From a virus (Duplodnaviria > Heunggongvirae > Uroviricota > Caudoviricetes): DNA of 11,449 bases. The DNA lies in the IMG/VR virus record IMGVR_UViG_2711768062_000006; one strand, 5' to 3'. Positions within the stretch are counted from its first letter, which is position 1. Each line of letters starts with the position of its first letter. This document shows, piece by piece, positions 3,796-11,156 of the stretch. The notes under the pieces were generated by a model, which did no database searches, was not told the origin of the DNA, and worked only from the letters and a program-made list of their open reading frames with translations. Position numbers and translations under genes: made by a program.

Positions 3796-3947
3796 CTCGT
3801 TTGTTCTGGTATTAATATTTCGCTTTACGACCGATTTTTATCTGATGATATCATGCGGTTTTCATATACTGACTTACTGTCTTTTCTCCGTTAGCGATTT
3901 TCTCCTGCTCAGCGATGATTTTATCTTTGGCTTCTAGTTAATTTCGC

Positions 3948-4169
3948 TCACTTCGAACCTCTCTGTTTACTGATAAGCTCCAGATCCTCCTGGCAACTTG
4001 CACAAGTCCGACAACCCTGAACGACCAGGCGTCTTCGTTCATCTATCGGATCGCCACACTCACAACAATGAGTGGCAGATATAGCCTGGTGGTTCAGGCG
4101 GCGCATTTTTATTGCTGTGTTGCGCTGTAATTCTTCAATTTCTGATGCTGAATCAATGATGTCTGCCAT
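3948..4169 (-). CDS. TraR/DksA-family C4 zinc-finger protein, 73 aa (lambda orf73-like)
   Basis: ATG at 4169-4167. Cys pairs CCECG...CRTCASC are typical of the TraR/DksA zinc finger. Length and position fit the recalled lambda TraR homolog. Confidence 0.75.
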   Translation of the reverse strand: MADIIDSASEIEELQRNTAIKMRRLNHQAISATHCCECGDPIDERRRLVVQGCRTCASCQEDLELISKQRGSK

Positions 4170-4222
4170 CTTCCATTAATCCCTGAATTGTTGGTTAATA
4201 CGCTTGAGGGTGAATGCGAATA

Positions 4223-4245
4223 ATAAAAAAGGAGCCTGTAGCTCC
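4223..4245 (-). terminator. Candidate intrinsic terminator inside the leftward operon, between the 103-aa ORF and the TraR-like ORF
   Basis: Read on the minus strand: GGAGC-UACAG-GCUCC hairpin (plus 4231-4245) followed by UUUUUUAUUAUU (plus 4219-4230). Confidence 0.5.
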
Positions 4246-4267
4246 CTGATGATTTTGCTTTTCATGT

Positions 4268-4579
4268 TCATCGTTCCTTAAAGACGCCGTTTAACATGCC
4301 GATTGCCAGGCTTAAATGAGTCGGTGTGAATCCCATCAGCGTTACCGTTTCGCGGTGCTTCTTCAGTACGCTACGGCAAATGTCATCGACGTTTTTATCC
4401 GGAAACTGCTGTCTGGCTTTTTTGATTTCAGAATTAGCCTGACGGGCAATGCTGCGAAGGGCGTTTTCCTGCTGAGGTGTCATTGAACAAGTCCCATGTC
4501 GGCAAGCATAAGCACACAGAATATGAAGCCCGCTGCCAGAAAAATGCATTCCGTGGTTGTTATACCTGGTCTCTCTCAT
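4268..4579 (-). CDS. Small early-left hypothetical protein, 103 aa, at the lambda orf61 position
   Basis: ATG at 4579-4577. Overlaps the upstream ORF by 20 nt, as I recall for lambda orf61/orf63. It is longer than lambda's 61-aa ORF. Confidence 0.5.
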   Translation of the reverse strand: MRETRYNNHGMHFSGSGLHILCAYACRHGTCSMTPQQENALRSIARQANSEIKKARQQFPDKNVDDICRSVLKKHRETVTLMGFTPTHLSLAIGMLNGVFKER

Positions 4580-4751
4580 CTGCTTCTGCTTTCGCCACCA
4601 TCATTTCCAGCTTTTGTGAAAGGGATGCGGCTAACGTATGAAATTCTTCGTCTGTTTCTACTGGTATTGGCACAAACCTGACTCCAATTTGAGCGAGGCT
4701 ATGTGCCATCTCGATACTCGTTCTTAACTCAACGGGAGATGCTTTGTGCAT
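4560..4751 (-). CDS. Small early-left hypothetical protein, 63 aa (lambda orf63-like by length and position)
   Basis: ATG at 4751-4749 preceded by GGGGAG at 5-nt spacing. [63 protein letters not shown]. Confidence 0.6.
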   Translation of the reverse strand: MHKASPVELRTSIEMAHSLAQIGVRFVPIPVETDEEFHTLAASLSQKLEMMVAKAEADERDQV

Positions 4752-4906
4752 ACAGCTCCCCGTTTATTATTTATCTCCTCAGCCAGCCGCTGTGCTTTCA
4801 GGGGATTTCGGATAACAGAAAGGCCGGGAAATACCCAGCCTCGCTTCGTAACGGAGTAGACGAAAGTGATCGTGCCTACGCGGATATTATCGTGAGGATG
4901 TTTCAT
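4724..4906 (-). CDS. Small early-left hypothetical protein, 60 aa from the second ATG (lambda orf60a-like)
   Basis: ORF track gives 62 aa from ATG 4912. The ATG at 4906 has a better-spaced GGGGAG and gives 60 aa. The ORF overlaps the 3' end of exo (by 4 nt from the 4906 start). Confidence 0.55.
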
Positions 4907-5583
4907 CGCCATTGCTCCCCAAATACAAAACCAATTTCAGCCAGTGCCTCGTCCATTTTTTCGATGAACTCCGGCACCATCTCGTCAAAACTCGCTATAT
5001 ACTTTTCATTCCGCTCAATCACGACATAATGCAGGCCTTCACGCTTCATACGCGGGTCATAGTTGGCAAAGTACCAGGCATCTTTTCGCGTCACCCACAT
5101 GCTGTACTGCACCTGGGCCATGTAAGCCGACTTTATGGCCTCGAAACCACCGAGCCGGAATTTCATGAAATCCCGGGAGGTAAACGGGCATTTCAGCTCA
5201 AGGCCATTGCCGTCACTGCATAAACCATCGGGAGAGCAGGCGGTGCGCATACTTTCGTCGCGATAGATGATCGGGGATTCAATAACATTTACGCCGGAAG
5301 TGAACTCAAACAGGGTTCTGGCGTCGTTCTCGTACTGTTTTCCCCAGGCCAGCGCTTTAGCGTTAACTTCCGGAGCCACACCGGTGCAAACCTCAGCCAG
5401 CAGGGTGTGGAAGTAGGACATTTTCATGTCAGGCCACTTCTTTCCTGATCGGGGCTTTGCTATCACGTTGTGAACTTCTGAAGCGGTGATGACGCCGAGC
5501 CGTAATTTGTGCCATGCATCATCCCCCTGTTCGACAGCTCTCACGTCGATCCCGGTACGCTGCAGGATAATGTCCGGTGTCAT
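4903..5583 (-). CDS. exo: Lambda exonuclease (Red-alpha), 226 aa
   Basis: [65 protein letters not shown]...FGEQWR matches recalled lambda Exo. Start overlaps the bet stop by 4 nt (ATGA). Confidence 0.97.
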
Positions 5584-6365
5584 GCTGCCACCTTCTGCTC
5601 AGTGGCTTTCTGTTTCAGGAATCCAAGAGCTTTCACTGCTTCGGCCTGTGTCAGTTCTGACGATGCGCGAATGTCGCGGCGAAATATCTGGGAACAGAGC
5701 GGCAATAAGTCGTCATCCCATGTTTTATCCAGGGCGATCAGCAGAGTGTTAATCTCCTGCATGGTTTCATCGTTAACCGGAGTGATGTCGCGTTCCGGCT
5801 GACGTTCTGCAGTGTATGCAGTATTTTCGACAATGCGCTCGGCTTCATCCTTGTCATAGATACCAGCAAATCCGAAGGCCAGACGGGCACACTGAATCAT
5901 GGCTTTATGCCGTAACATCCGTTTGGGATGCGACTGCCACGGTCCGGTGATTTCTCTGCCTTCGCGGGTTTTGAATGGTTCGCGGCGGCATTCATCCATC
6001 CACTCGGTAACGCAGATCGGATGATTGCGGTCCTTGCGGTAAATCCGGCATGTGCAGGATTCGTTGTCCTGTTCAAAGTCCATGCCGTCAAACTGCTGGT
6101 TTTCGTTGATGATGCGGGACCAGCCATCAACGCCCACCACCGGAACGATGCCGTTCTGCTTATCAGGGAAGGCGTAAATTTCTTTCGTCCACGGATTAAG
6201 ACCGTACTGGTTGGCGACGATCAGCAATGCGATGAACTGCGCATCGCTGGCATCACCTTTAAATGCCGTCTGGCGAAGAGTGGTGATCAGTTCCTGTGGG
6301 TCGACAGAATCCATGCCGACTCGTTCAGCCAGCTTCCCAGCCAGCGTTGCGAGTGCTGTACTCAT
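5580..6365 (-). CDS. bet: Lambda Bet (Red-beta single-strand annealing protein), 261 aa
   Basis: [66 protein letters not shown]...EQKVAA matches recalled lambda Bet. Confidence 0.97.
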
Positions 6366-6370
6366 CCGTT

Positions 6371-6667
6371 TTATACCTCTGAATCAATATCAACCTGGTG
6401 GTGAGCAATGGTTTCAACCATGTACCGGATGTGTTCTGCCATGCGCTCCTGAAACTCAACATCGTCATCAAACGCACGGGTAATGGCTTTTTTGCTGGCC
6501 CCGTGGCGTTGCAAATGATCGATGCATAGCGATTCAAACAGGTGCTGGGGCAGGCCTTTTTCCATGTCGTCTGCCAGTTCTGCCTCTTTCTCTTCACGGG
6601 CGATCTGCTGGTAGTGACGCACCCAGCTCTGAGCCTCAAGACGATCCTGAATGTAATAAGCGTTCAT
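6371..6667 (-). CDS. gam: Gam (RecBCD inhibitor), 98-aa short form only
   Basis: [60 protein letters not shown]...[10 protein letters not shown] matches recalled lambda Gam from its internal Met. AGGAG sits 7 nt upstream of the ATG. An in-frame TAA at plus 6722-6724 rules out a lambda-style 138-aa form. Confidence 0.93.
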
Positions 6668-6742
6668 GGCTGAACTCCTGAAAATGGCTGTGAAAATATC
6701 GCCCGCGAAATGCCAGGCTGATTAGAAAAACAGGAAAGGGGA

Positions 6743-6949
6743 TTAGTGATTCAGGCCGTTGCCGCGTCCGTCGAGAAAAACTTCCACGAGCAAGTCACGG
6801 GTATAAGTGCGCTCGATGCCGCGATGCAGATAAAGCCGTCCGCGTAAATTAGCTGATGCAGTCCAGGTACCATCTTTGTGTTTGACCAGCATTCCTGGCA
6901 TGACCGCACCGCGATTAACGGTCTGCGTTCCGTAATGTTGATGAACCAT
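6743..6949 (-). CDS. Hypothetical protein, 68 aa, at the kil position between pL and gam; identity not established
   Basis: ATG at 6949-6947 preceded by AGGAG (plus 6955-6959) and a 5-nt spacer. Protein MVHQHYGTQTVNRGAVMPGMLVKHKDGTWTASANLRGRLYLHRGIERTYTRDLLVEVFLDGRGNGLNH. I could not match it to lambda Kil from memory. Confidence 0.55.
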   Translation of the reverse strand: MVHQHYGTQTVNRGAVMPGMLVKHKDGTWTASANLRGRLYLHRGIERTYTRDLLVEVFLDGRGNGLNH

Positions 6950-7118
6950 AAAAACTCCTGCCCGTAAGCTGGGCTGCTGAACAAATGAGGGGTTGCGCAG
7001 TATCTGGCGGTGGATGGCCGCCGGTTGTCATAACTAAGCCGCCTTGTTGAAGCGACTGAGGTATGAGGTGTTGAGTTGATTTCAGCTGGTCACACCGACG
7101 TTCACGCGTCCGTTTCAC
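6915..7118 (-). CDS. Speculative short N-like ORF, 67 aa from GTG, with an arginine-rich N-terminus (MKRTRERRCDQ)
   Basis: GTG at 7118-7116 with GGGGAG 8 nt upstream. First gene-like frame after the pL-like promoter. N-terminal RTRERR resembles the arginine-rich motif of lambda N (recalled QTRRRERRAEKQAQW). It overlaps the next ORF by 35 nt and is far shorter than known N proteins. Confidence 0.25.
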   Translation of the reverse strand: MKRTRERRCDQLKSTQHLIPQSLQQGGLVMTTGGHPPPDTAQPLICSAAQLTGRSFYGSSTLRNADR

Positions 7119-7224
7119 CCCTCGCACTCCCCGGAGCCTGCTGAAATTCAAGCTGCGGATCTAAGCGGTCATCGCAACGGTGAATCAGGTGGTTGCCGTA
7201 TCGTTGTGTTGTTGCGATGAACTT

Positions 7225-7253
7225 ATTTAAAACTATAGTTGTTTTATCGTCAA
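7225..7253 (-). promoter_or_regulatory. pL-like leftward promoter with embedded operator half-sites
   Basis: On the minus strand: -35 TTGACG (plus 7248-7253), 17-bp spacer, -10 TTAAAT (plus 7225-7230). The surrounding 35 bp is nearly identical to the pR-like module at 8272-8306 and contains GTTGTT/AACAAC inverted repeats and the palindrome AACTATAGTT (7231-7240). Confidence 0.5.
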
Positions 7254-7390
7254 CAACAAAAGTTGTTTTATTGGTTGTTTTAGATATAACTGGTTGTATT
7301 TAGGATGGATTTATTTTGTGACTTGAATCGCATAGCGATAACTGAAGCGAGGTTATGGTGGTTTTTTTAACGGTGTGTGATGAGGGGAGG

Positions 7391-7419
7391 GCAAAAGAAA
7401 ACCCGGCACGGTGACCGGG
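7391..7419 (-). terminator. Intrinsic terminator after the repressor gene
   Basis: On the minus strand: CCCGG-UCACCGUG-CCGGG hairpin (plus 7402-7419) followed by UUUUCUUUUGC (plus 7391-7401), about 120 nt after the repressor stop. Confidence 0.55.
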
Positions 7420-7540
7420 ATTCTTACGCCGTTAGGTAAAGATATTATTGCGGTGGCTTAATATTACTACCTAGAGCAAAGATAGGAATTAGTTCTTTAC
7501 TGAATGAGCACAATGCCCAGTTGATAATTTTTAATTGGTA

Positions 7541-8230
7541 CTACCCATGCTTCCTATATGTCTGCGGCATGCTCCCAATAACCTTACCGAAGATGAACAC
7601 CCGGTTCATCTCGTCTTTCTCGATCGGGTCCCACGGTGAGTAGCTTTTGTTATCAGAGATGACCAGCAGCTTATCCTTCATCATTTGCAGGCGCTTTACA
7701 TGGGCTGTGTCGTCGTACAGAAACGCATAGATACCATCACCGTCGAAAGATTTAACAGTGATATCAACGAACAGCAGATCACCTGGTTCGATCGTTCCTG
7801 ACATGCTGTCACCACGCACGTTAATGATGCGGATATTTTCCGCCTTCCTACCATCGAACATGTGACGAGCATCGTCAAACGAGTACTCAACCGAGCGTAG
7901 AACTTCTACAAACTCACGGTTGATGACTCCCGGCCCAGCACTGACTTCTATATCAAGAACGTCAATCTTGAAGTATTTGGAATGGCTGACAGTTGATTGT
8001 ATTGGTTGCACTGTACTGTCTGACATATTTCCAATGCCAGAAGATAACCATTCTGCGCGCACACCCAAAGCGTTCGCGATCTCCACGATTTTAGTTGTTT
8101 GGTTAGCTTTCCCTGTTTCGATTTTCTGAATAGCAGCCTGGCTAACCCCAACCAAATCCCCAAGTGCCTTTTGTGTAAGGCCTCGCGCTAATCTGGCTTC
8201 TTTAAGTCTTTCTGAGAGTGTTGTTTTCAT
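7541..8230 (-). CDS. cI: CI-type prophage repressor, N-terminal HTH plus C-terminal S24 (LexA-like) autopeptidase; 229 aa from the MKTT start
   Basis: MKTTLSERLKEARLARGLTQKALGDLVGVSQAAIQKIETG is an XRE-type HTH. Candidate Ala-Gly cleavage site in EVSAGPG, catalytic Ser in GDSMSGT and Lys in VKRLQ. The ORF track starts at 8296, but that ATG lies inside the operator palindrome and pR. The 8230 start would give a leaderless transcript from the pRM-like promoter. Not lambda cI by sequence. Confidence 0.85.
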   Translation of the reverse strand: MKTTLSERLKEARLARGLTQKALGDLVGVSQAAIQKIETGKANQTTKIVEIANALGVRAEWLSSGIGNMSDSTVQPIQSTVSHSKYFKIDVLDIEVSAGPGVINREFVEVLRSVEYSFDDARHMFDGRKAENIRIINVRGDSMSGTIEPGDLLFVDITVKSFDGDGIYAFLYDDTAHVKRLQMMKDKLLVISDNKSYSPWDPIEKDEMNRVFIFGKVIGSMPQTYRKHG

Positions 8231-8236
8231 AGACCA

Positions 8237-8265
8237 AATGTACAACCAAGGTTTTATTTCATCAA
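8237..8265 (-). promoter_or_regulatory. pRM-like promoter for the repressor gene, predicting a leaderless mRNA
   Basis: On the minus strand: -35 TTGATG (plus 8260-8265), 17-bp spacer, -10 TACATT (plus 8237-8242). The predicted start falls at or next to the A of the ATG at 8230. Confidence 0.4.
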
Positions 8266-8271
8266 GCGAAA

Positions 8272-8296
8272 ATGGTTGTTGACTAAAAACAACCAT
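8272..8296. promoter_or_regulatory. Candidate operator: 25-bp perfect-arm palindrome ATGGTTGTT-N7-AACAACCAT overlapping the pR -35
   Basis: The 9-bp arms are exact reverse complements. Related half-sites (TGGTTGT/ACAACCA, GTTGTT/AACAAC) recur at 8242-8248, 8289-8295 and across 7238-7300. Confidence 0.5.
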
Positions 8297-8305
8297 AGTT
8301 TTAAT
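8278..8305 (+). promoter_or_regulatory. pR-like rightward promoter driving cro
   Basis: -35 TTGACT (8278-8283), 16-bp spacer, -10 TTTAAT (8300-8305), then GGAGG (8325-8329) and the cro ATG at 8335. Confidence 0.55.
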
Positions 8306-8334
8306 CTTGGTTCAGATTAACCACGGAGGTTGTT

Positions 8335-8565
8335 ATGAACCCAGCAATCAAAACAGCGATCAATATAGTTGGTTCACAAAAGAAATTGGGCGATGCCTGC
8401 GAAGTTTCACAGCAGGCCGTCTATAAGTGGCTTCACAACAAAGCAAAGGTATCCCCTGAACATGTCGGCAGCATTGTTACGGCTACTGGTGGAGTTGTGA
8501 AGGCGTACCAGATTCGCCCGGATCTTCCGAAGTTGTTTCCACACACCGAAAAGAACGCAGCTTAA
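8335..8565 (+). CDS. cro: Cro-like regulator of the YdaS type, 76 aa
   Basis: First rightward gene after pR with a strong GGAGG RBS. Motifs SQ..L...VSQQAVYKW...V.PE....I..ATGG.V.....RPDL fit my recollection of the YdaS-type Cro family. Not lambda Cro. Confidence 0.8.
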   Translation: MNPAIKTAINIVGSQKKLGDACEVSQQAVYKWLHNKAKVSPEHVGSIVTATGGVVKAYQIRPDLPKLFPHTEKNAA

Positions 8566-8577
8566 ATTTCCATTTCA

Positions 8578-8623
8578 CGCTCTTTAACAATAAGCAATCA
8601 ACTTAACAGACTGATTAACAGTC
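8578..8623 (+). promoter_or_regulatory. nutR-like element: boxA-like CGCTCTTTAACAA plus a boxB-like stem-loop GACTG-ATTAA-CAGTC
   Basis: 12 of the 13 nt (GCTCTTTAACAA) match the boxA consensus as I recall it. The stem-loop 18 nt downstream has a 5-bp stem and 5-nt loop, as in lambda boxB, but a different loop sequence. Position just after cro matches lambda nutR. Confidence 0.45.
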
Positions 8624-8646
8624 AATTCAAACTAAAGGAATCAATT

Positions 8647-8805
8647 ATGCAACCAATTACATACCAACAGACTAGCGGATTTACCCCGACTGCGGTGATA
8701 AATCGTTCTCAAACAAAACAGGCGCCAGGCCACGAAAAAATCCGTGATGCCGTTCGGCCTGGTCGGCTGCAGATAATCAGGATGTTGTTGCCGCACTCAT
8801 TGTGA
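8647..8805 (+). CDS. Small ORF, 52 aa, with a strong RBS; either a real small protein or the frameshifted 5' part of the following gene
   Basis: AAGGAA (8635-8640) 6 nt before ATG 8647. MQPITYQQTSGFTPTAVINRSQTKQAPGHEKIRDAVRPGRLQIIRMLLPHSL. Its TGA stop (8803-8805) overlaps the GTG start of the next ORF as GTGA. No lambda CII similarity. Confidence 0.4.
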   Translation: MQPITYQQTSGFTPTAVINRSQTKQAPGHEKIRDAVRPGRLQIIRMLLPHSL

Positions 8806-9185
8806 ATGAGTATCGGGAGCTGGGCGGCGGCACCATCGATTTCCCTGATGATGTCAGCCGTGCACGCCAGAAGTTGTTCCGCTTCCTCGATAACAAATTC
8901 GATTCTGAAAAATACCGAAATAACCTGCGTGAACTGACCCCGGCAATTCTGGCGGTACTACCGCTGGAATATCGCGGCCACCTGGTTGAGCAGGATAGCT
9001 TCATGGCTCGGCTGGTTGAAATGGAAAAGGAACTCAGTGAGGCAAAGCAGGCGGTCATTCTCAACGCACCACGCCACCAGAAACTGAAGGAAATGAGTGA
9101 AGGTATTGTGTCGATGTTTCGCGTGGACCCGGATCTGGCTGGTCCATTAATGGCGATGGTTACCACCATGCTGGGGGCAATATGA
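8802..9185 (+). CDS. Hypothetical protein, 127 aa from a GTG start, at the cII position; possibly a YdaT-like CII-equivalent, possibly N-terminally truncated
   Basis: GTG start with no Shine-Dalgarno of its own. The frame is open and coding-like for 18 codons upstream with no start codon. Motifs EYRELGGG and LTPAILAVLP resemble what I recall of E. coli YdaT; this recollection is unverified. Confidence 0.5.
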   Translation: MNEYRELGGGTIDFPDDVSRARQKLFRFLDNKFDSEKYRNNLRELTPAILAVLPLEYRGHLVEQDSFMARLVEMEKELSEAKQAVILNAPRHQKLKEMSEGIVSMFRVDPDLAGPLMAMVTTMLGAI

Positions 9186-9271
9186 CAGGTTCAGAAATGG
9201 CGAAAGTCGGTCTGCGGGAACAGAACCGACTTTCAGGTGCAAATCGTAACGCACTCATTACGGGAGGAATT

Positions 9272-10201
9272 ATGGCAAACACTGCTGAGATATTCAATTT
9301 TCCAGTGCCGGATGTGGCACAAAAGGAGCCGCGCGTGGCAGATCTCGATGATGGTTATACGCGCATTGCAAATGAGTTGCTGGAAGTTGTAATGCTGGCC
9401 GGATTAACACAGCACCAGCTTCTGGTCTTCCTGGCTGTCATGCGCAAAACATATGGCTTTAATAAAAAACTGGATTGGGTGAGCAACGAGCAACTTTCCG
9501 AGTTAACCGGGATATTGCCGCACAAGTGTTCTGCTGCAAAAAGTGTTCTGGTAAAGCGTGGGATTTTAATTCAGAGCGGGCGGAATATCGGCATCAATAA
9601 TGTGGTCAGTGAATGGTCAACATTACCCGAATCAGGTAAGAAAAATAAAGTTTACCTGAAAGAGGTAAATTTACCTGAATCAGGTAAGAAAAGTTTACCT
9701 AAATCAGGTAAACGCCTTTACCCGAATCAGGTAAACACAAAAGACAAACTAACAAAAGACAATATAAAACCTTTTTCGTCAGAGAATTCTGGCGAATCCT
9801 CTGACCAGCCAGAAAACGATCTTCCTGTGGTGAAACCGGATGCTGCAATTCAGAGCGGCAGCAAGTGGGGGACAGCAGAAGACCTGACCGCCGCAGAGTG
9901 GATGTTTGACATGGTGAAGACCATCGCGCCATCAGCCAGAAAACCGAATTTTGCAGGGTGGGCTAACGATATCCGCCTGATGCGTGAACGTGACGGACGT
10001 AACCACCGCGACATGTGTGTACTGTTCCGCTGGGCATGCCAGGACAACTTCTGGTCCGGTAACGTGCTGAGTCCGGCCAAACTCCGCGACAAGTGGACCC
10101 AGCTCGAAATCAACCGAAACAAGCAACAGGCTGGCGTGACAGCCGGCAAACCAAAACTCGACCTGACGAACACTGACTGGATTTACGGGGTGGAGCTATG
10201 A
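9272..10201 (+). CDS. O: Replication initiator, lambda O-like, 309 aa from the second in-frame ATG; divergent N-terminal domain, lambda-like C-terminal domain
   Basis: GGGAGG precedes ATG 9272 (MANTAEIFNF...), which parallels the lambda O start MTNTAKILNF. The C-terminal ~110 aa (AEDLTAAEWMFDMVKTIAP...TNTDWIYGVEL) match recalled lambda O. The ORF-track start at 9182 gives 339 aa. Overlaps P by 4 nt (ATGA). Confidence 0.85.
   Translation: MANTAEIFNFPVPDVAQKEPRVADLDDGYTRIANELLEVVMLAGLTQHQLLVFLAVMRKTYGFNKKLDWVSNEQLSELTGILPHKCSAAKSVLVKRGILIQSGRNIGINNVVSEWSTLPESGKKNKVYLKEVNLPESGKKSLPKSGKRLYPNQVNTKDKLTKDNIKPFSSENSGESSDQPENDLPVVKPDAAIQSGSKWGTAEDLTAAEWMFDMVKTIAPSARKPNFAGWANDIRLMRERDGRNHRDMCVLFRWACQDNFWSGNVLSPAKLRDKWTQLEINRNKQQAGVTAGKPKLDLTNTDWIYGVEL
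9623..9734. repeat. Replication-origin iterons: five 17-bp palindromic repeats TTACC-N7-GGTAA inside the O gene
   Basis: Copies at 9623-9639, 9652-9668, 9671-9687, 9695-9711 and 9718-9734, followed by an A-rich tract (ACACAAAAGACAAACTAACAAAAGACAATATAAAAC). They encode the peptide repeat LPESGKK/LPKSGK in O. Architecture parallels the lambda origin, which lies inside O. Confidence 0.8.
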
Positions 10202-10899
10202 AAAACATCGCCGCACAGATGGTTAACTTTGACCGTGAGCAGATGCGCCGGATCGCCAACAACATGCCGGAACAGTACGACGAAAAGCCGCAGGTACAAC
10301 AGGTAGCGCAGATCATCAATGGTGTGTTCAGCCAGTTACTGGCAACTTTCCCGGCGAGCCTGGCTAACCGGGACCAGAACGAACTGAACGAAATCCGCCG
10401 CCAGTGGGTGCTGGCTTTCCGGGAAAACGGGATCACCACAATGGAACAGGTTAACGCAGGAATGCGCGTAGCCCGTCGGCAGAATCGACCATTCCTGCCA
10501 TCACCCGGGCAGTTTGTTGCCTGGTGCCGGGAAGAAGCATCCGTTAACGCCGGGCTGCCAAACGTCAGCGAGCTGGTTGATATGGTCTATGAGTATTGTC
10601 GGAAGCGTGGCCTGTATCCGGATGCAGAGTCTTATCCGTGGAAATCAAACGCGCACTACTGGCTGGTTACCAACCTGTACCAGAACATGCGGGCCAATGC
10701 GCTTACTGATGCGGAATTACGGCGCAAGGCTGCCGATGAACTGACTTGTATGACCGCGCGAATTAACCGTGGTGAGGCGATACCTGAACCAGTAAAACAA
10801 CTTCCTGTCATGGGCGGTAGACCTCTAAATCGTGCACAGGCTCTGGCGAAGATCGCAGAAATCAAAGCGAAGTTCGGACTGAAAGGAGCAACTGTATGA
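10198..10899 (+). CDS. P: Replication protein P (DnaB helicase loader), 233 aa
   Basis: MKNIAAQMVNFDREQMRRIANNMPEQYDEKPQVQQVAQIINGVFSQLLATFPASLANRDQNE... matches recalled lambda P almost exactly. ATGA overlaps with O upstream and ren downstream. Confidence 0.97.
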   Translation: MKNIAAQMVNFDREQMRRIANNMPEQYDEKPQVQQVAQIINGVFSQLLATFPASLANRDQNELNEIRRQWVLAFRENGITTMEQVNAGMRVARRQNRPFLPSPGQFVAWCREEASVNAGLPNVSELVDMVYEYCRKRGLYPDAESYPWKSNAHYWLVTNLYQNMRANALTDAELRRKAADELTCMTARINRGEAIPEPVKQLPVMGGRPLNRAQALAKIAEIKAKFGLKGATV

Positions 10900-11156
10900 C
10901 GGGCAAAGAGGTAATTATTCATTATCTGGAGACGCACAAGAGCTTCTGTGCGCAGGACGTTGCTGCGGCAACAGGTGTGACAGTAACCTGCATAAATCAG
11001 GCAGCAGCTAAAATGGCGCGGGCAGGAATCCTGGTCATTGATGGTAAGGTCTGGCGAACGGTGTATTACCGGTTCGCTACCAGAGAAGAACGGGAAGGAA
11101 AGGTGAGCACGAACCTGATTTTTAAGGAGTGCCGCCAGAGTGCCGCGATGAAGTGA
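10896..11156 (+). CDS. ren: Ren, C-terminally truncated (85 aa); stop codon supplied by the first bases of the inserted IS element
   Basis: MTGKEVIIHYLETHKSFCAQDVAAATGVTVTCINQAAAKMARAGILVIDGKVWRTVYYRFATREEREGKVSTNLIFKECRQSAAMK matches recalled lambda Ren (96 aa) up to ...SAAMK. The reading frame ends in the TGA at 11154-11156, which is the start of the IS-like sequence. Confidence 0.85.
   Translation: MTGKEVIIHYLETHKSFCAQDVAAATGVTVTCINQAAAKMARAGILVIDGKVWRTVYYRFATREEREGKVSTNLIFKECRQSAAMK

What the first reader, a model, noticed from the sequence alone, without database searches (positions are those of the whole stretch)
8566..8646. nutR-like boxA/boxB element after cro with an unusual boxB loop
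CGCTCTTTAACAA (8578-8590) contains a 12-nt match to the boxA consensus as I recall it. A 5-bp stem and 5-nt loop hairpin, GACTG-ATTAA-CAGTC (8609-8623), follows 18 nt downstream. This has the architecture of a lambdoid nut site, but the loop ATTAA differs from the GAAAA/GACAA loops I recall for lambda and P22. That would imply a distinct N specificity, and it conflicts with the apparent absence of a normal N gene.
Basis: partly seen in the sequence, partly recalled or inferred. Interest (0 to 1): 0.5.

Follow-up and report, generated by a model that had tools for sequence, protein, structure and literature searches.

The report
Orphan boxA left from lost nutR
The boxA motif after cro is real and descends from a true phage nut site, but the "boxB" hairpin is an incidental, non-conserved 12-base indel product and the phage has no N gene, so this is a leftover half of an antitermination site, not a new N specificity.

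Summary
Both sequence features are at the stated coordinates. The boxA (8578-8590) is an exact match to the published functional consensus GYTCTTTAANA. It is not a chance match, and it sits where related cro modules in other Enterobacterales carry a genuine nutR (boxA, GC-rich boxB, a matching nutL and an arginine-rich N).

The hairpin is not a boxB. Its 5' arm lies in a 12-nt indel that is absent from all five sequenced phages with this immunity region, from 115 of 120 viral-contig copies and from about 97% of about 1,500 E. coli genomes. It is weak (-4.2 kcal/mol), varies without compensation, has no partner downstream of PL, and hairpins of this size are common by chance.

There is no N gene. 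The roughly 67-aa "N-like peptide" is Kil, and an arginine-rich ORF in the PL leader is interrupted in relatives. All 87 informative relatives carry the same N-less PL module and have no leftward boxA. Sister N-less phages with other immunities have no boxA at all. An HK022 put model finds nothing.

Best reading: an orphan boxA, a relic of nutR. It probably still binds NusB/S10 and might act as a host-only Nus element on the downstream YdaT (CII analogue) gene, but this is untested.

The parts
8578..8590 (+). Orphan boxA, CGCTCTTTAACAA. The core GCTCTTTAACA (8579-8589) matches the functional consensus GYTCTTTAANA and has the high-affinity rrn/phi21-type U at position 8.
   Evidence: Consensus from PMC5725501; position effects from PMC3177189. 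Homologous boxA 7-24 nt after cro in 8 of 14 outgroup loci.
8609..8623 (+). Incidental 5-bp/5-nt hairpin GACTG-ATTAA-CAGTC. It is not a boxB.
   Evidence: dG -4.2 kcal/mol and common by chance. Absent in most relatives. Natural variants break the stem (GACTA, -1.0 kcal/mol) or change the loop (ATGAA) without compensation.
8603..8614 (+). 12-nt indel TTAACAGACTGA, bounded by the 7-nt direct repeat TTAACAG (8603-8609 and 8615-8621). The segment carries the whole 5' arm of the hairpin. The short allele is what a repeat-mediated deletion of the long allele would give.
   Evidence: Alignment A1; allele tables. The direction of the change is inferred.
8335..8565 (+). cro (YdaS / P22-Cro family).
   Evidence: Pfam PF15943 E = 6.6e-17; phrog_35; annotated as Cro in relatives.
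8635..8639 (+). Shine-Dalgarno AAGGA of the ydaT-type gene, 7 nt before the ATG at 8647 and 45 nt after the end of the boxA 13-mer (33 nt in the short allele).
   Evidence: Read from the sequence; inferred.
8647..9185 (+). YdaT-type CII analogue. In this window it is split by a private 1-nt deletion at about 8757; relatives have an intact 540-nt gene.
   Evidence: Pfam PF06254; phrog_163; frameshift located; private to the window.
8272..8310 (+). OR/PR region. The operator-like 19-mer AAAACAACCATAGTTTTAA mirrors one at PL. The likely promoter is TTGACT-17-TAATCT, reading into cro and the boxA.
   Evidence: Inverted repeats I2 and I22 and the sequence. Promoter assignment is inferred; the consensus scanner did not call it.
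7541..8230 (-). cI-type repressor (HTH plus S24 peptidase).
   Evidence: annotated as cI in relatives.
7225..7275 (-). OL/PL region (TTGACG-17-TTAAAT). No boxA or hairpin copy lies downstream of it.
6950..7222 (-). Conserved, GC-rich, untranslated PL leader of about 273 nt that occupies the place of nutL and N. It is not a put RNA and its function is unknown.
6743..6949 (-). kil, the first gene of the PL operon.
   Evidence: phrog_294 E = 1.3e-37; annotated as Kil in relatives.

Best explanation
The element is an orphan boxA, the surviving half of an ancestral nutR. A cro module that in related phages is followed by boxA, boxB and a lambda-type cII is here joined to a YdaT-type cII/O/P module and to an N-less PL module (PL, a leader of about 273 nt, then kil). 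The boxB segment is gone.

The GACTG-ATTAA-CAGTC hairpin is an incidental feature of a 12-nt stretch bounded by TTAACAG direct repeats. About 97% of copies have lost that stretch.

Mechanistically, the boxA is transcribed in the PR message. Because it is an exact consensus site with U8, it should bind host NusB-NusE(S10). With no boxB and no N it cannot nucleate an N-type antitermination complex. Any residual effect would come from a host-only Nus complex, and sister phages show that this is dispensable for the phage type.

Shown: the motif, its homology and position, the absence of N and nutL, and the non-conservation of the hairpin. Inferred: transcription from PR, NusB/E binding, and the direction of the indel.
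For: The boxA is real and significant:
- It is exact and unique in the window, with about 0.05 expected per window.

It is homologous to a nutR boxA:
- 8 of 14 outgroup cro modules have a boxA 7-24 nt after cro, followed by GC-rich hairpins and a lambda-type cII.
- 4 of these have a matching nutL and an arginine-rich N-like ORF. L099 has the identical hairpin TATGCCGCGAGGTGTA on both sides; L100 has TCGCTGAAAAAGCGA.
- In the alignment, a gap of about 42 columns follows the boxA exactly where the outgroups hold boxB.

The hairpin is not conserved:
- It is missing from 5 of 5 phages of the same immunity type.
- It is missing from 115 of 120 viral-contig copies and from 74 of 80.
- Only 47 of 1,515 E. 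coli genomes carry it.
- Natural variants are non-compensatory.

There is no N system:
- The 68-aa ORF is Kil.
- The arginine-rich ORF is interrupted in relatives.
- There is no second boxA.
- 87 of 87 relatives have the N-less leader and 0 of 87 have a leftward boxA.
- Sister N-less phages 4A7, PhiR70_1, Perceval and D2 have no boxA.
Against: - The boxA is retained intact in nearly every copy, which could mean it is used. The whole spacer is equally monomorphic, however (110 of 120 copies identical), so retention is uninformative.
- The long, hairpin-bearing allele is probably ancestral in this lineage and is more diverse, so a past function for the hairpin cannot be excluded.
- Deletion of boxB is inferred from an alignment that is unreliable downstream of the boxA.
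- No binding or expression data exist.
Confidence: 0.72

Rival explanations
1. The orphan boxA is actively used as a host-only Nus element, with no phage protein involved. NusB/E, NusA, NusG and SuhB would assemble on the PR transcript as they do at rrn, suhB and CRISPR leaders. The complex would either repress translation of the YdaT (CII analogue) gene and promote Rho termination (suhB-like), or protect the PR transcript from Rho (rrn/CRISPR-like). Either effect would tune the lysis-lysogeny decision or delayed-early expression in an N-less phage.
For: - The site is a perfect match to GYTCTTTAANA. BoxA-only regulation is documented for suhB, works with up to 100 nt between the boxA and the Shine-Dalgarno sequence (PMC5725501), and is documented for CRISPR arrays (PMC7665894).
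- Here the boxA lies 33-45 nt upstream of the ydaT Shine-Dalgarno sequence, in a G-poor spacer (7 G, 17 C of 81) that is predicted to be largely unstructured.
- The boxA has the high-affinity U8 (PMC3177189).
- The module is in 1,515 of 5,426 complete E. coli genomes.
Against: - Sister N-less phages with the same PL leader and the same ydaT/O/P genes, but another cro, have no boxA.
- Outgroups where a YdaT-type gene follows cro (L092, L096) have none either.
- Natural boxA-breaking variants exist: G2U (CTCTCTTTAACAA) and GCTCTTTGACAA.
- No selective constraint can be measured.
- There is no boxA on the PL side.
Confidence: 0.27
2. This is a complete, functional nutR with a novel AUUAA-loop boxB, read by an unrecognised N-like protein.
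For: The order boxA-spacer-hairpin and the position after cro resemble a nut site. The long allele may be the ancestral form of the spacer.
Against: - The hairpin is absent from about 97% of copies, including all sequenced phages of this immunity type.
- It is weak and AU-rich, its loop is not GNRA-like, and it lies 18 nt from the boxA 13-mer.
- Variants are non-compensatory.
- There is no nutL copy.
- There is no N gene: the candidate peptide is Kil and the arginine-rich ORF is not conserved.
Confidence: 0.02
3. The spacer acts mainly at the DNA level, as the PRE-equivalent promoter and YdaT operator region. The 15-bp palindrome of the long allele would be a protein-binding site and the boxA match would be incidental to that role.
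For: In CP-933P, YdaT footprints about 95 nt across the ydaS-ydaT junction, which holds the PRE equivalent (PMC9986795). The spacer contains AATCAA twice, and the insert adds TGATT.
Against: - The published operator TTGATT-N6-AATCAA is not enriched: the best spacer hit has 3 mismatches, with 12 hits observed against 8.7 expected.
- The palindrome is missing in 97% of copies.
- The homology of the boxA to the outgroup nutR boxA is not explained by a DNA-site role.
- A DNA role for the spacer and an RNA boxA are not mutually exclusive.
Confidence: 0.2
4. This is an HK022-type put RNA. HK022 has no N either and carries putR exactly between cro and cII.
For: The position corresponds to that of putR, and the phage lacks N.
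Against: A covariance model built from 10 putL/putR sequences scores HK022 putL at 92 bits and putR at 72 bits. It scores nothing above 6.5 bits in the window, and 6.0 bits or less in 4A7 and Perceval. BLAST with putL and putR does not reach this phage group. The spacer is AU-rich and unstructured.
Confidence: 0.01

Closest known systems
Lambdoid nutR sites (lambda, P22, phi21): boxA, then boxB, read by N with NusA/B/E/G
   Same: The boxA sequence is of the rrn/phi21 high-affinity type with U8. It lies just downstream of cro and upstream of the cII-function gene, on the PR transcript. It is homologous in position to the nutR boxA of related cro modules in Photorhabdus, Arsenophonus, Rosenbergiella, Buttiauxella and others.
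   Different: There is no conserved boxB, no nutL partner and no N gene. The hairpin is an indel polymorphism with an AUUAA loop. Sister phages manage without any boxA.
BoxA-only host Nus-factor elements: rrn leaders, the suhB 5'UTR (Baniulyte 2017) and CRISPR array leaders (Stringer 2020)
   Same: A perfect GYTCTTTAANA match stands alone on an mRNA leader or spacer, tens of nucleotides upstream of a Shine-Dalgarno sequence, with no phage protein needed.
   Different: No evidence of Nus recruitment or regulation exists here. The site was probably inherited from a nut site rather than evolved for this role. It is not conserved across the sister phages that share the downstream genes.
HK022 put RNAs (N-independent antitermination)
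   Same: The biological situation is the same: a lambdoid phage without N whose early operons must still be read through. putR occupies the same cro-cII gap.
   Different: No sequence or structure match. The spacer is short, AU-rich and unstructured.
Rac / CP-933P type immunity regions (RacR-YdaS-YdaT)
   Same: Cro is of the YdaS family, and the downstream gene is of the YdaT family and is a CII analogue (PMC9986795).
   Different: In CP-933P the YdaS-YdaT junction is described as a YdaT operator/PRE region. I searched that paper only for operator and promoter terms, not for boxA, so I cannot say whether a boxA is present or discussed there. The two outgroup loci here that have a YdaT-type gene after cro (L092, L096) have short junctions and no boxA.

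Membership tests
Lambdoid nut site (N-utilisation site) | boxA matching the consensus, on the early transcript | tested here: met
   CGCTCTTTAACAA at 8578-8590 is an exact match and unique in the window.
Lambdoid nut site (N-utilisation site) | boxB stem-loop a few nt downstream of boxA, conserved among phages of the same N/immunity specificity | tested here: not met
   The hairpin is absent from 5 of 5 phages, from 115 of 120 viral-contig copies and from about 97% of E. coli copies. It has non-compensatory variants and a dG of -4.2 kcal/mol.
Lambdoid nut site (N-utilisation site) | A second site (nutL) with the same boxA and boxB downstream of PL | tested here: not met
   No other boxA with up to 2 mismatches. 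No copy of the hairpin in the repeat search. 0 of 87 relatives have a leftward boxA. Positive control: L099, L100, L102 and L098 do have one.
Lambdoid nut site (N-utilisation site) | A cognate N protein with an N-terminal arginine-rich motif, encoded just downstream of nutL | tested here: not met
   The first PL gene is kil. The arginine-rich ORF 6915-7151 has an in-frame stop in PhiR34_1 and IdasGreatGrand, and stop-free length varies from 37 to 84 aa among 46 leader variants. No N is annotated in any relative.
Lambdoid nut site (N-utilisation site) | Location between cro and the cII-function gene | tested here: met
   The boxA starts 12 nt after the cro stop, and its 13-mer ends 56 nt before the ydaT-type start codon.
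BoxA-only host Nus-factor regulatory element (rrn / suhB / CRISPR type) | Perfect match to GYTCTTTAANA on the transcribed strand | tested here: met
   GCTCTTTAACA at 8579-8589. Consensus from PMC5725501.
BoxA-only host Nus-factor regulatory element (rrn / suhB / CRISPR type) | Association of NusB/NusE/SuhB with the site in vivo, and boxA-dependent change in expression | not testable with these tools
   Needs ChIP, reporter fusions and nus or rho mutants.
BoxA-only host Nus-factor regulatory element (rrn / suhB / CRISPR type) | Conservation of the boxA in orthologous contexts | tested here: inconclusive
   The boxA is retained in almost all copies, but the whole spacer is monomorphic. It is absent in sister phages with the same downstream genes. 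Rare boxA-breaking variants exist.
HK022 put antiterminator RNA | Match to the put sequence/structure profile downstream of PL and PR | tested here: not met
   Model R1 scores HK022 putL at 92 bits and putR at 72 bits; the best window hit is 6.5 bits and lies elsewhere.

The most novel reading that the evidence does not exclude
A very common family of N-less lambdoid E. coli prophages, present in about 28% of complete genomes, may have kept the boxA half of nutR as a phage-protein-independent switch. Host NusB/E-NusA-NusG-SuhB would load at the orphan boxA on the PR transcript and set either translation and Rho termination of the CII analogue YdaT, or Rho resistance of the PR operon. This would link the lysis-lysogeny decision to the host's pool of free Nus factors.
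Probability: 0.22. Interest if true: 0.5.

Novelty: new member of a known kind. Interest (0 to 1): 0.25.

Why it matters
As proposed (a nut site with a new boxB loop and so a new N specificity), the finding does not hold, and no search for a cognate N protein is warranted.

What remains is modest but real. It is a clear example of modular decay of an antitermination system: a consensus, high-affinity boxA stranded in a phage lineage that has lost boxB, nutL and N.

This module is in roughly a quarter of complete E. coli genomes. Because of that, the orphan boxA is a convenient natural test of whether a lone boxA on an mRNA recruits the host Nus complex and alters translation or Rho termination, as shown for suhB and CRISPR leaders.

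It also raises an open question: how do these N-less, put-less lambdoid phages read through their early operons?

Tried and rejected
1. Rfam scan of the whole window at permissive E-value: nothing in the region. The only hit is a spurious SprD match in the ori iterons.
2. HK022 put hypothesis, for the spacer and for the PL leader: BLAST and a covariance model with positive controls were all negative.
3. Hidden N gene. The 68-aa ORF is Kil. The arginine-rich 78-aa ORF 6915-7151 looked tempting (RLRGVRGVKRTRERR). It has no family hit, has an in-frame stop in two phages, and is frame-shifted relative to others.
4. A shared 15-mer, CGCAGCTT(A/G)AATTTC, in both early transcripts (I18) was considered as a nutL/nutR-like pair. 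I rejected it because it overlaps the cro stop codon, is absent from sister phages with another cro, and about 0.5 such pairs are expected in the searched region (my own back-of-envelope estimate, not a tool result).
5. Test for purifying selection on the boxA within the lineage: impossible, because 110 of 120 spacers are identical.
6. YdaT operator motif in the spacer: not above chance.
7. Supplementary list of putative boxA sites in Baniulyte 2017. I read the part covering E. coli CFT073 onwards in full and saw the earlier E. coli rows only as search snippets. No entry at the roughly 45-nt spacing expected for this site appeared. Other prophage cI/cII boxA sites are listed.
8. Covariation in the PL leader: 0 compensatory pairs among 46 variants.

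Full report
CONTEXT. The window is a lambda-like prophage integrated next to ybhC. From left to right it carries lambda-type int/xis, exo-bet-gam-kil, a cI-type repressor (7541-8230, minus strand), cro (8335-8565), a YdaT-type CII analogue (8647-9185), and O with its iterons followed by P. From 3936 to 11153 it is 99.93% identical to a prophage of E. coli WP5-S17-ESBL-11. Mirror-image operator-like 19-mers mark PL (about 7225-7275, minus strand) and PR (about 8272-8310).

THE OBSERVATION. CGCTCTTTAACAA is at 8578-8590, 12 nt after the cro stop. GACTG-ATTAA-CAGTC is at 8609-8623. The boxA is the only match on either strand, even allowing 2 mismatches. It fits the published functional gamma-proteobacterial consensus GYTCTTTAANA exactly (PMC5725501). 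That consensus is expected about 0.05 times per window and about 2e-4 times per spacer. The boxA also has U at position 8, the high-affinity rrn/phi21 state (PMC3177189). The hairpin is unremarkable by comparison. Its free energy is -4.2 kcal/mol against -7.9 for lambda boxB. Hairpins of this size occur 4.2 times per kb in the window, and 12% of random 50-nt windows hold one. The spacer folds no better than shuffled sequence.

THE HAIRPIN IS A MINORITY INDEL ALLELE. Five sequenced phages share this cro/immunity region: PhiR34_1, IdasGreatGrand, PhiR5_1, PhiR26_1 and PhiR47_2. All five lack the 12 nt TTAACAGACTGA, which holds the entire 5' arm of the hairpin, but keep the boxA. I collected viral-contig copies anchored only on the cro end and the ydaT start, leaving the spacer free to vary. 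Of these, 115 of 120 are short, 5 are long, and 110 are identical. An independent set gave 74 short and 6 long. Among 5,426 complete E. coli genomes, 1,515 carry the junction. Only 47 carry the long allele, counted with a query that can seed only across the insertion.

The long alleles vary without compensation. One has GACTA...CAGTC (-1.0 kcal/mol) together with a G2U boxA. Another has the loop ATGAA. The 12 nt are bounded by the direct repeat TTAACAG, so the short allele is what a repeat-mediated deletion of the long one would give. The reverse change would need 5 new bases. The long form is therefore probably ancestral in this lineage (inference), and it has been lost in about 97% of copies, including every deposited phage genome of this immunity type.

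THERE IS NO N AND NO nutL. The 68-aa ORF in the N position (6743-6949, minus strand) is Kil (phrog_294, E = 1.3e-37). It is preceded by an untranslated leader of about 273 nt that begins at the PL start. An arginine-rich ORF within that leader (6915-7151) has no family match. It carries an in-frame TAG in PhiR34_1 and IdasGreatGrand, and it is in a different frame relative to kil in the window than in 4A7. Across 46 distinct leader variants its stop-free length ranges from 37 to 84 codons. No relative has an annotated N. All 87 viral-contig loci with enough left flank carry the same N-less leader, and none has a leftward boxA within 6 kb. No second copy of the boxA or of the hairpin appears in the window.

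WHERE THE boxA COMES FROM. I retrieved 14 loci from other Enterobacterales genera whose Cro is 63-86% identical. Eight of them have a boxA with 0-2 mismatches 7-24 nt after the cro stop, followed by GC-rich hairpins and a lambda-type cII. Four of these also show, within the 1.5-kb flank available, a leftward boxA with a related hairpin:
- L099: TATGCCGCGAGGTGTA, identical on both sides.
- L100: TCGCTGAAAAAGCGA on the left and CTCCCTGAAATTGGGAG on the right.
- L102 and L098 similarly.
In each of these four an ORF opens just downstream with an arginine-rich N-terminus: MSAKQRCKSRRKNRR, NARCRRHERRSAKR, MNAKKRCKLRRIDRRK and MNRNQRRMAEYNARK. These are genuine N/nutL/nutR systems and serve as positive controls.

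In an alignment of the spacers, the cro end and the boxA line up across genera. The E. coli alleles then show a gap of about 42 columns directly after the boxA, where the outgroups hold boxB. Further downstream the alignment is unreliable. Outgroups in which a YdaT-type gene follows cro (L092, L096) have no boxA. The simplest history is that a cro-plus-boxA segment from an N-dependent ancestor became joined to a YdaT-type cII/O/P module and an N-less PL module, and boxB was lost in the process.

IS THE ORPHAN boxA USED? BoxA-only regulation by the host Nus complex is established. At suhB it represses translation and thereby promotes Rho termination, and it still works with up to 100 nt between the boxA and the Shine-Dalgarno sequence (PMC5725501). 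At CRISPR arrays it prevents Rho termination (PMC7665894). The boxA here lies 33-45 nt upstream of the ydaT Shine-Dalgarno sequence, in a G-poor and largely unstructured spacer. NusB/E binding is therefore very plausible, and an effect on YdaT expression or PR read-through is possible.

Three points argue against the boxA being needed. First, sister N-less phages (4A7, PhiR70_1, Perceval, D2) share the PL leader and the ydaT/O/P genes but have a different cro. They have a cro-ydaT gap of about 25-30 nt where cro is annotated (4A7, Perceval, D2) and no boxA anywhere in the early region. Second, boxA-breaking variants occur naturally: G2U and GCTCTTTGACAA. G2U is a known inactivating change. Third, no constraint can be measured, because the spacer is nearly monomorphic. 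I put about 0.25 on the boxA having a real host-only function, and about 0.7 on the overall reading of a relic boxA plus an incidental hairpin.

OTHER READINGS TESTED.
- HK022-type put RNA, which occupies the same gap in another N-less phage (PMC9986795 is not the source here; see PMC9378689). A covariance model built from 10 putL/putR sequences finds both HK022 sites (92 and 72 bits). It finds nothing in this window, in 4A7 or in Perceval.
- A DNA-level role. In CP-933P the ydaS-ydaT junction holds the PRE equivalent and a YdaT footprint of about 95 nt (PMC9986795). The spacer here probably has such duties as well. However, the published operator motif is not enriched, and a DNA role would not explain the homology of the boxA to nutR.
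- Rfam has nothing for this region.

VERDICT. The interpretation of a nutR with an unusual boxB and a distinct N specificity is not supported. The element is an orphan boxA, a known kind of motif in an unusual, stranded context. Interest is low to moderate.

Noticed in passing
window 6950-7222 (minus strand): A GC-rich untranslated leader of about 273 nt starts at the PL transcript start and runs to kil. It is about 95% conserved even in phages with a different immunity region; in 4A7 the homology begins at the predicted start, at GTCGCAACAA. It occupies the place of nutL and N in a phage group that has neither N nor put. The four common polymorphisms that fall in predicted helices all preserve pairing (U-G/C-G, A-U/G-U and similar), but no pair shows a change on both sides, and the fold z-score is only -1.7. 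Its function is unknown, and it is the most interesting loose end here.
   Followed up: partly
window about 8757 (within 8647-9185, + strand): The YdaT-type CII analogue is split into 52-aa and 127-aa ORFs by a single-base deletion (CGCGCC to CGGCC). The deletion is private to this window: the otherwise 99.93% identical prophage in E. coli WP5-S17-ESBL-11 and all phage relatives have the intact 540-nt gene. It is either a real inactivating mutation or a sequencing error.
   Followed up: yes
window 7143-7157 (minus strand) and 8556-8570 (+ strand): The same 15-mer, CGCAGCTT(G/A)AATTTC, occurs in both early transcripts, in the PL leader and across the cro stop codon (I18). This is probably chance: about 0.5 such pairs are expected in the searched region (my own estimate, not a tool result), and the 15-mer is absent from sister phages with another cro.
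   Followed up: partly
window 9620-9740 (+ strand, inside the O gene): Four or five iterons, TTACC(C/T)GAATCAGGTAA, spaced about 24 nt apart (D1-D3). They look like the lambda-type replication origin inside O. The only Rfam hit in the window (SprD, 23.9 bits against a gathering score of 100) falls here and is spurious.
   Followed up: no
window 7260-7541 compared with relatives L003-L006, L104-L106: The slot between cI and PL, the rexAB position, is empty in this window. In relatives it holds varied cargo annotated as HipA/HipD, GevT/GevA, a lipoprotein or an ASCH-domain protein. A terminator-like hairpin follows cI at 7419-7402.
   Followed up: no
L009 (HK225) 2304 (+ strand); L090 243 (minus strand); L092 153 (minus strand): A boxA-like TGCTTTTTAACAA lies on the leftward (PL-side) strand in several phages that have no boxA after cro. 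In HK225 it is just downstream of the annotated PL-side promoter. It differs from the consensus at position 4 (C to T), one of the two changes in the C4T/T6C double mutant that abolished SuhB association at suhB. These may be decayed or variant nutL sites.
   Followed up: no
window 6985-6995 (minus strand), just upstream of kil: Relative to the other phages there is a 2-nt indel and a cluster of substitutions (CAGATACTGCGC--AACCCCTCATTTG against CTGAATACGCGCAGAAGTCTCTATATG). This changes which upstream ORF is in frame with kil, which explains why Kil is annotated at 207, 291, 378 or 420 nt in different records.
   Followed up: partly
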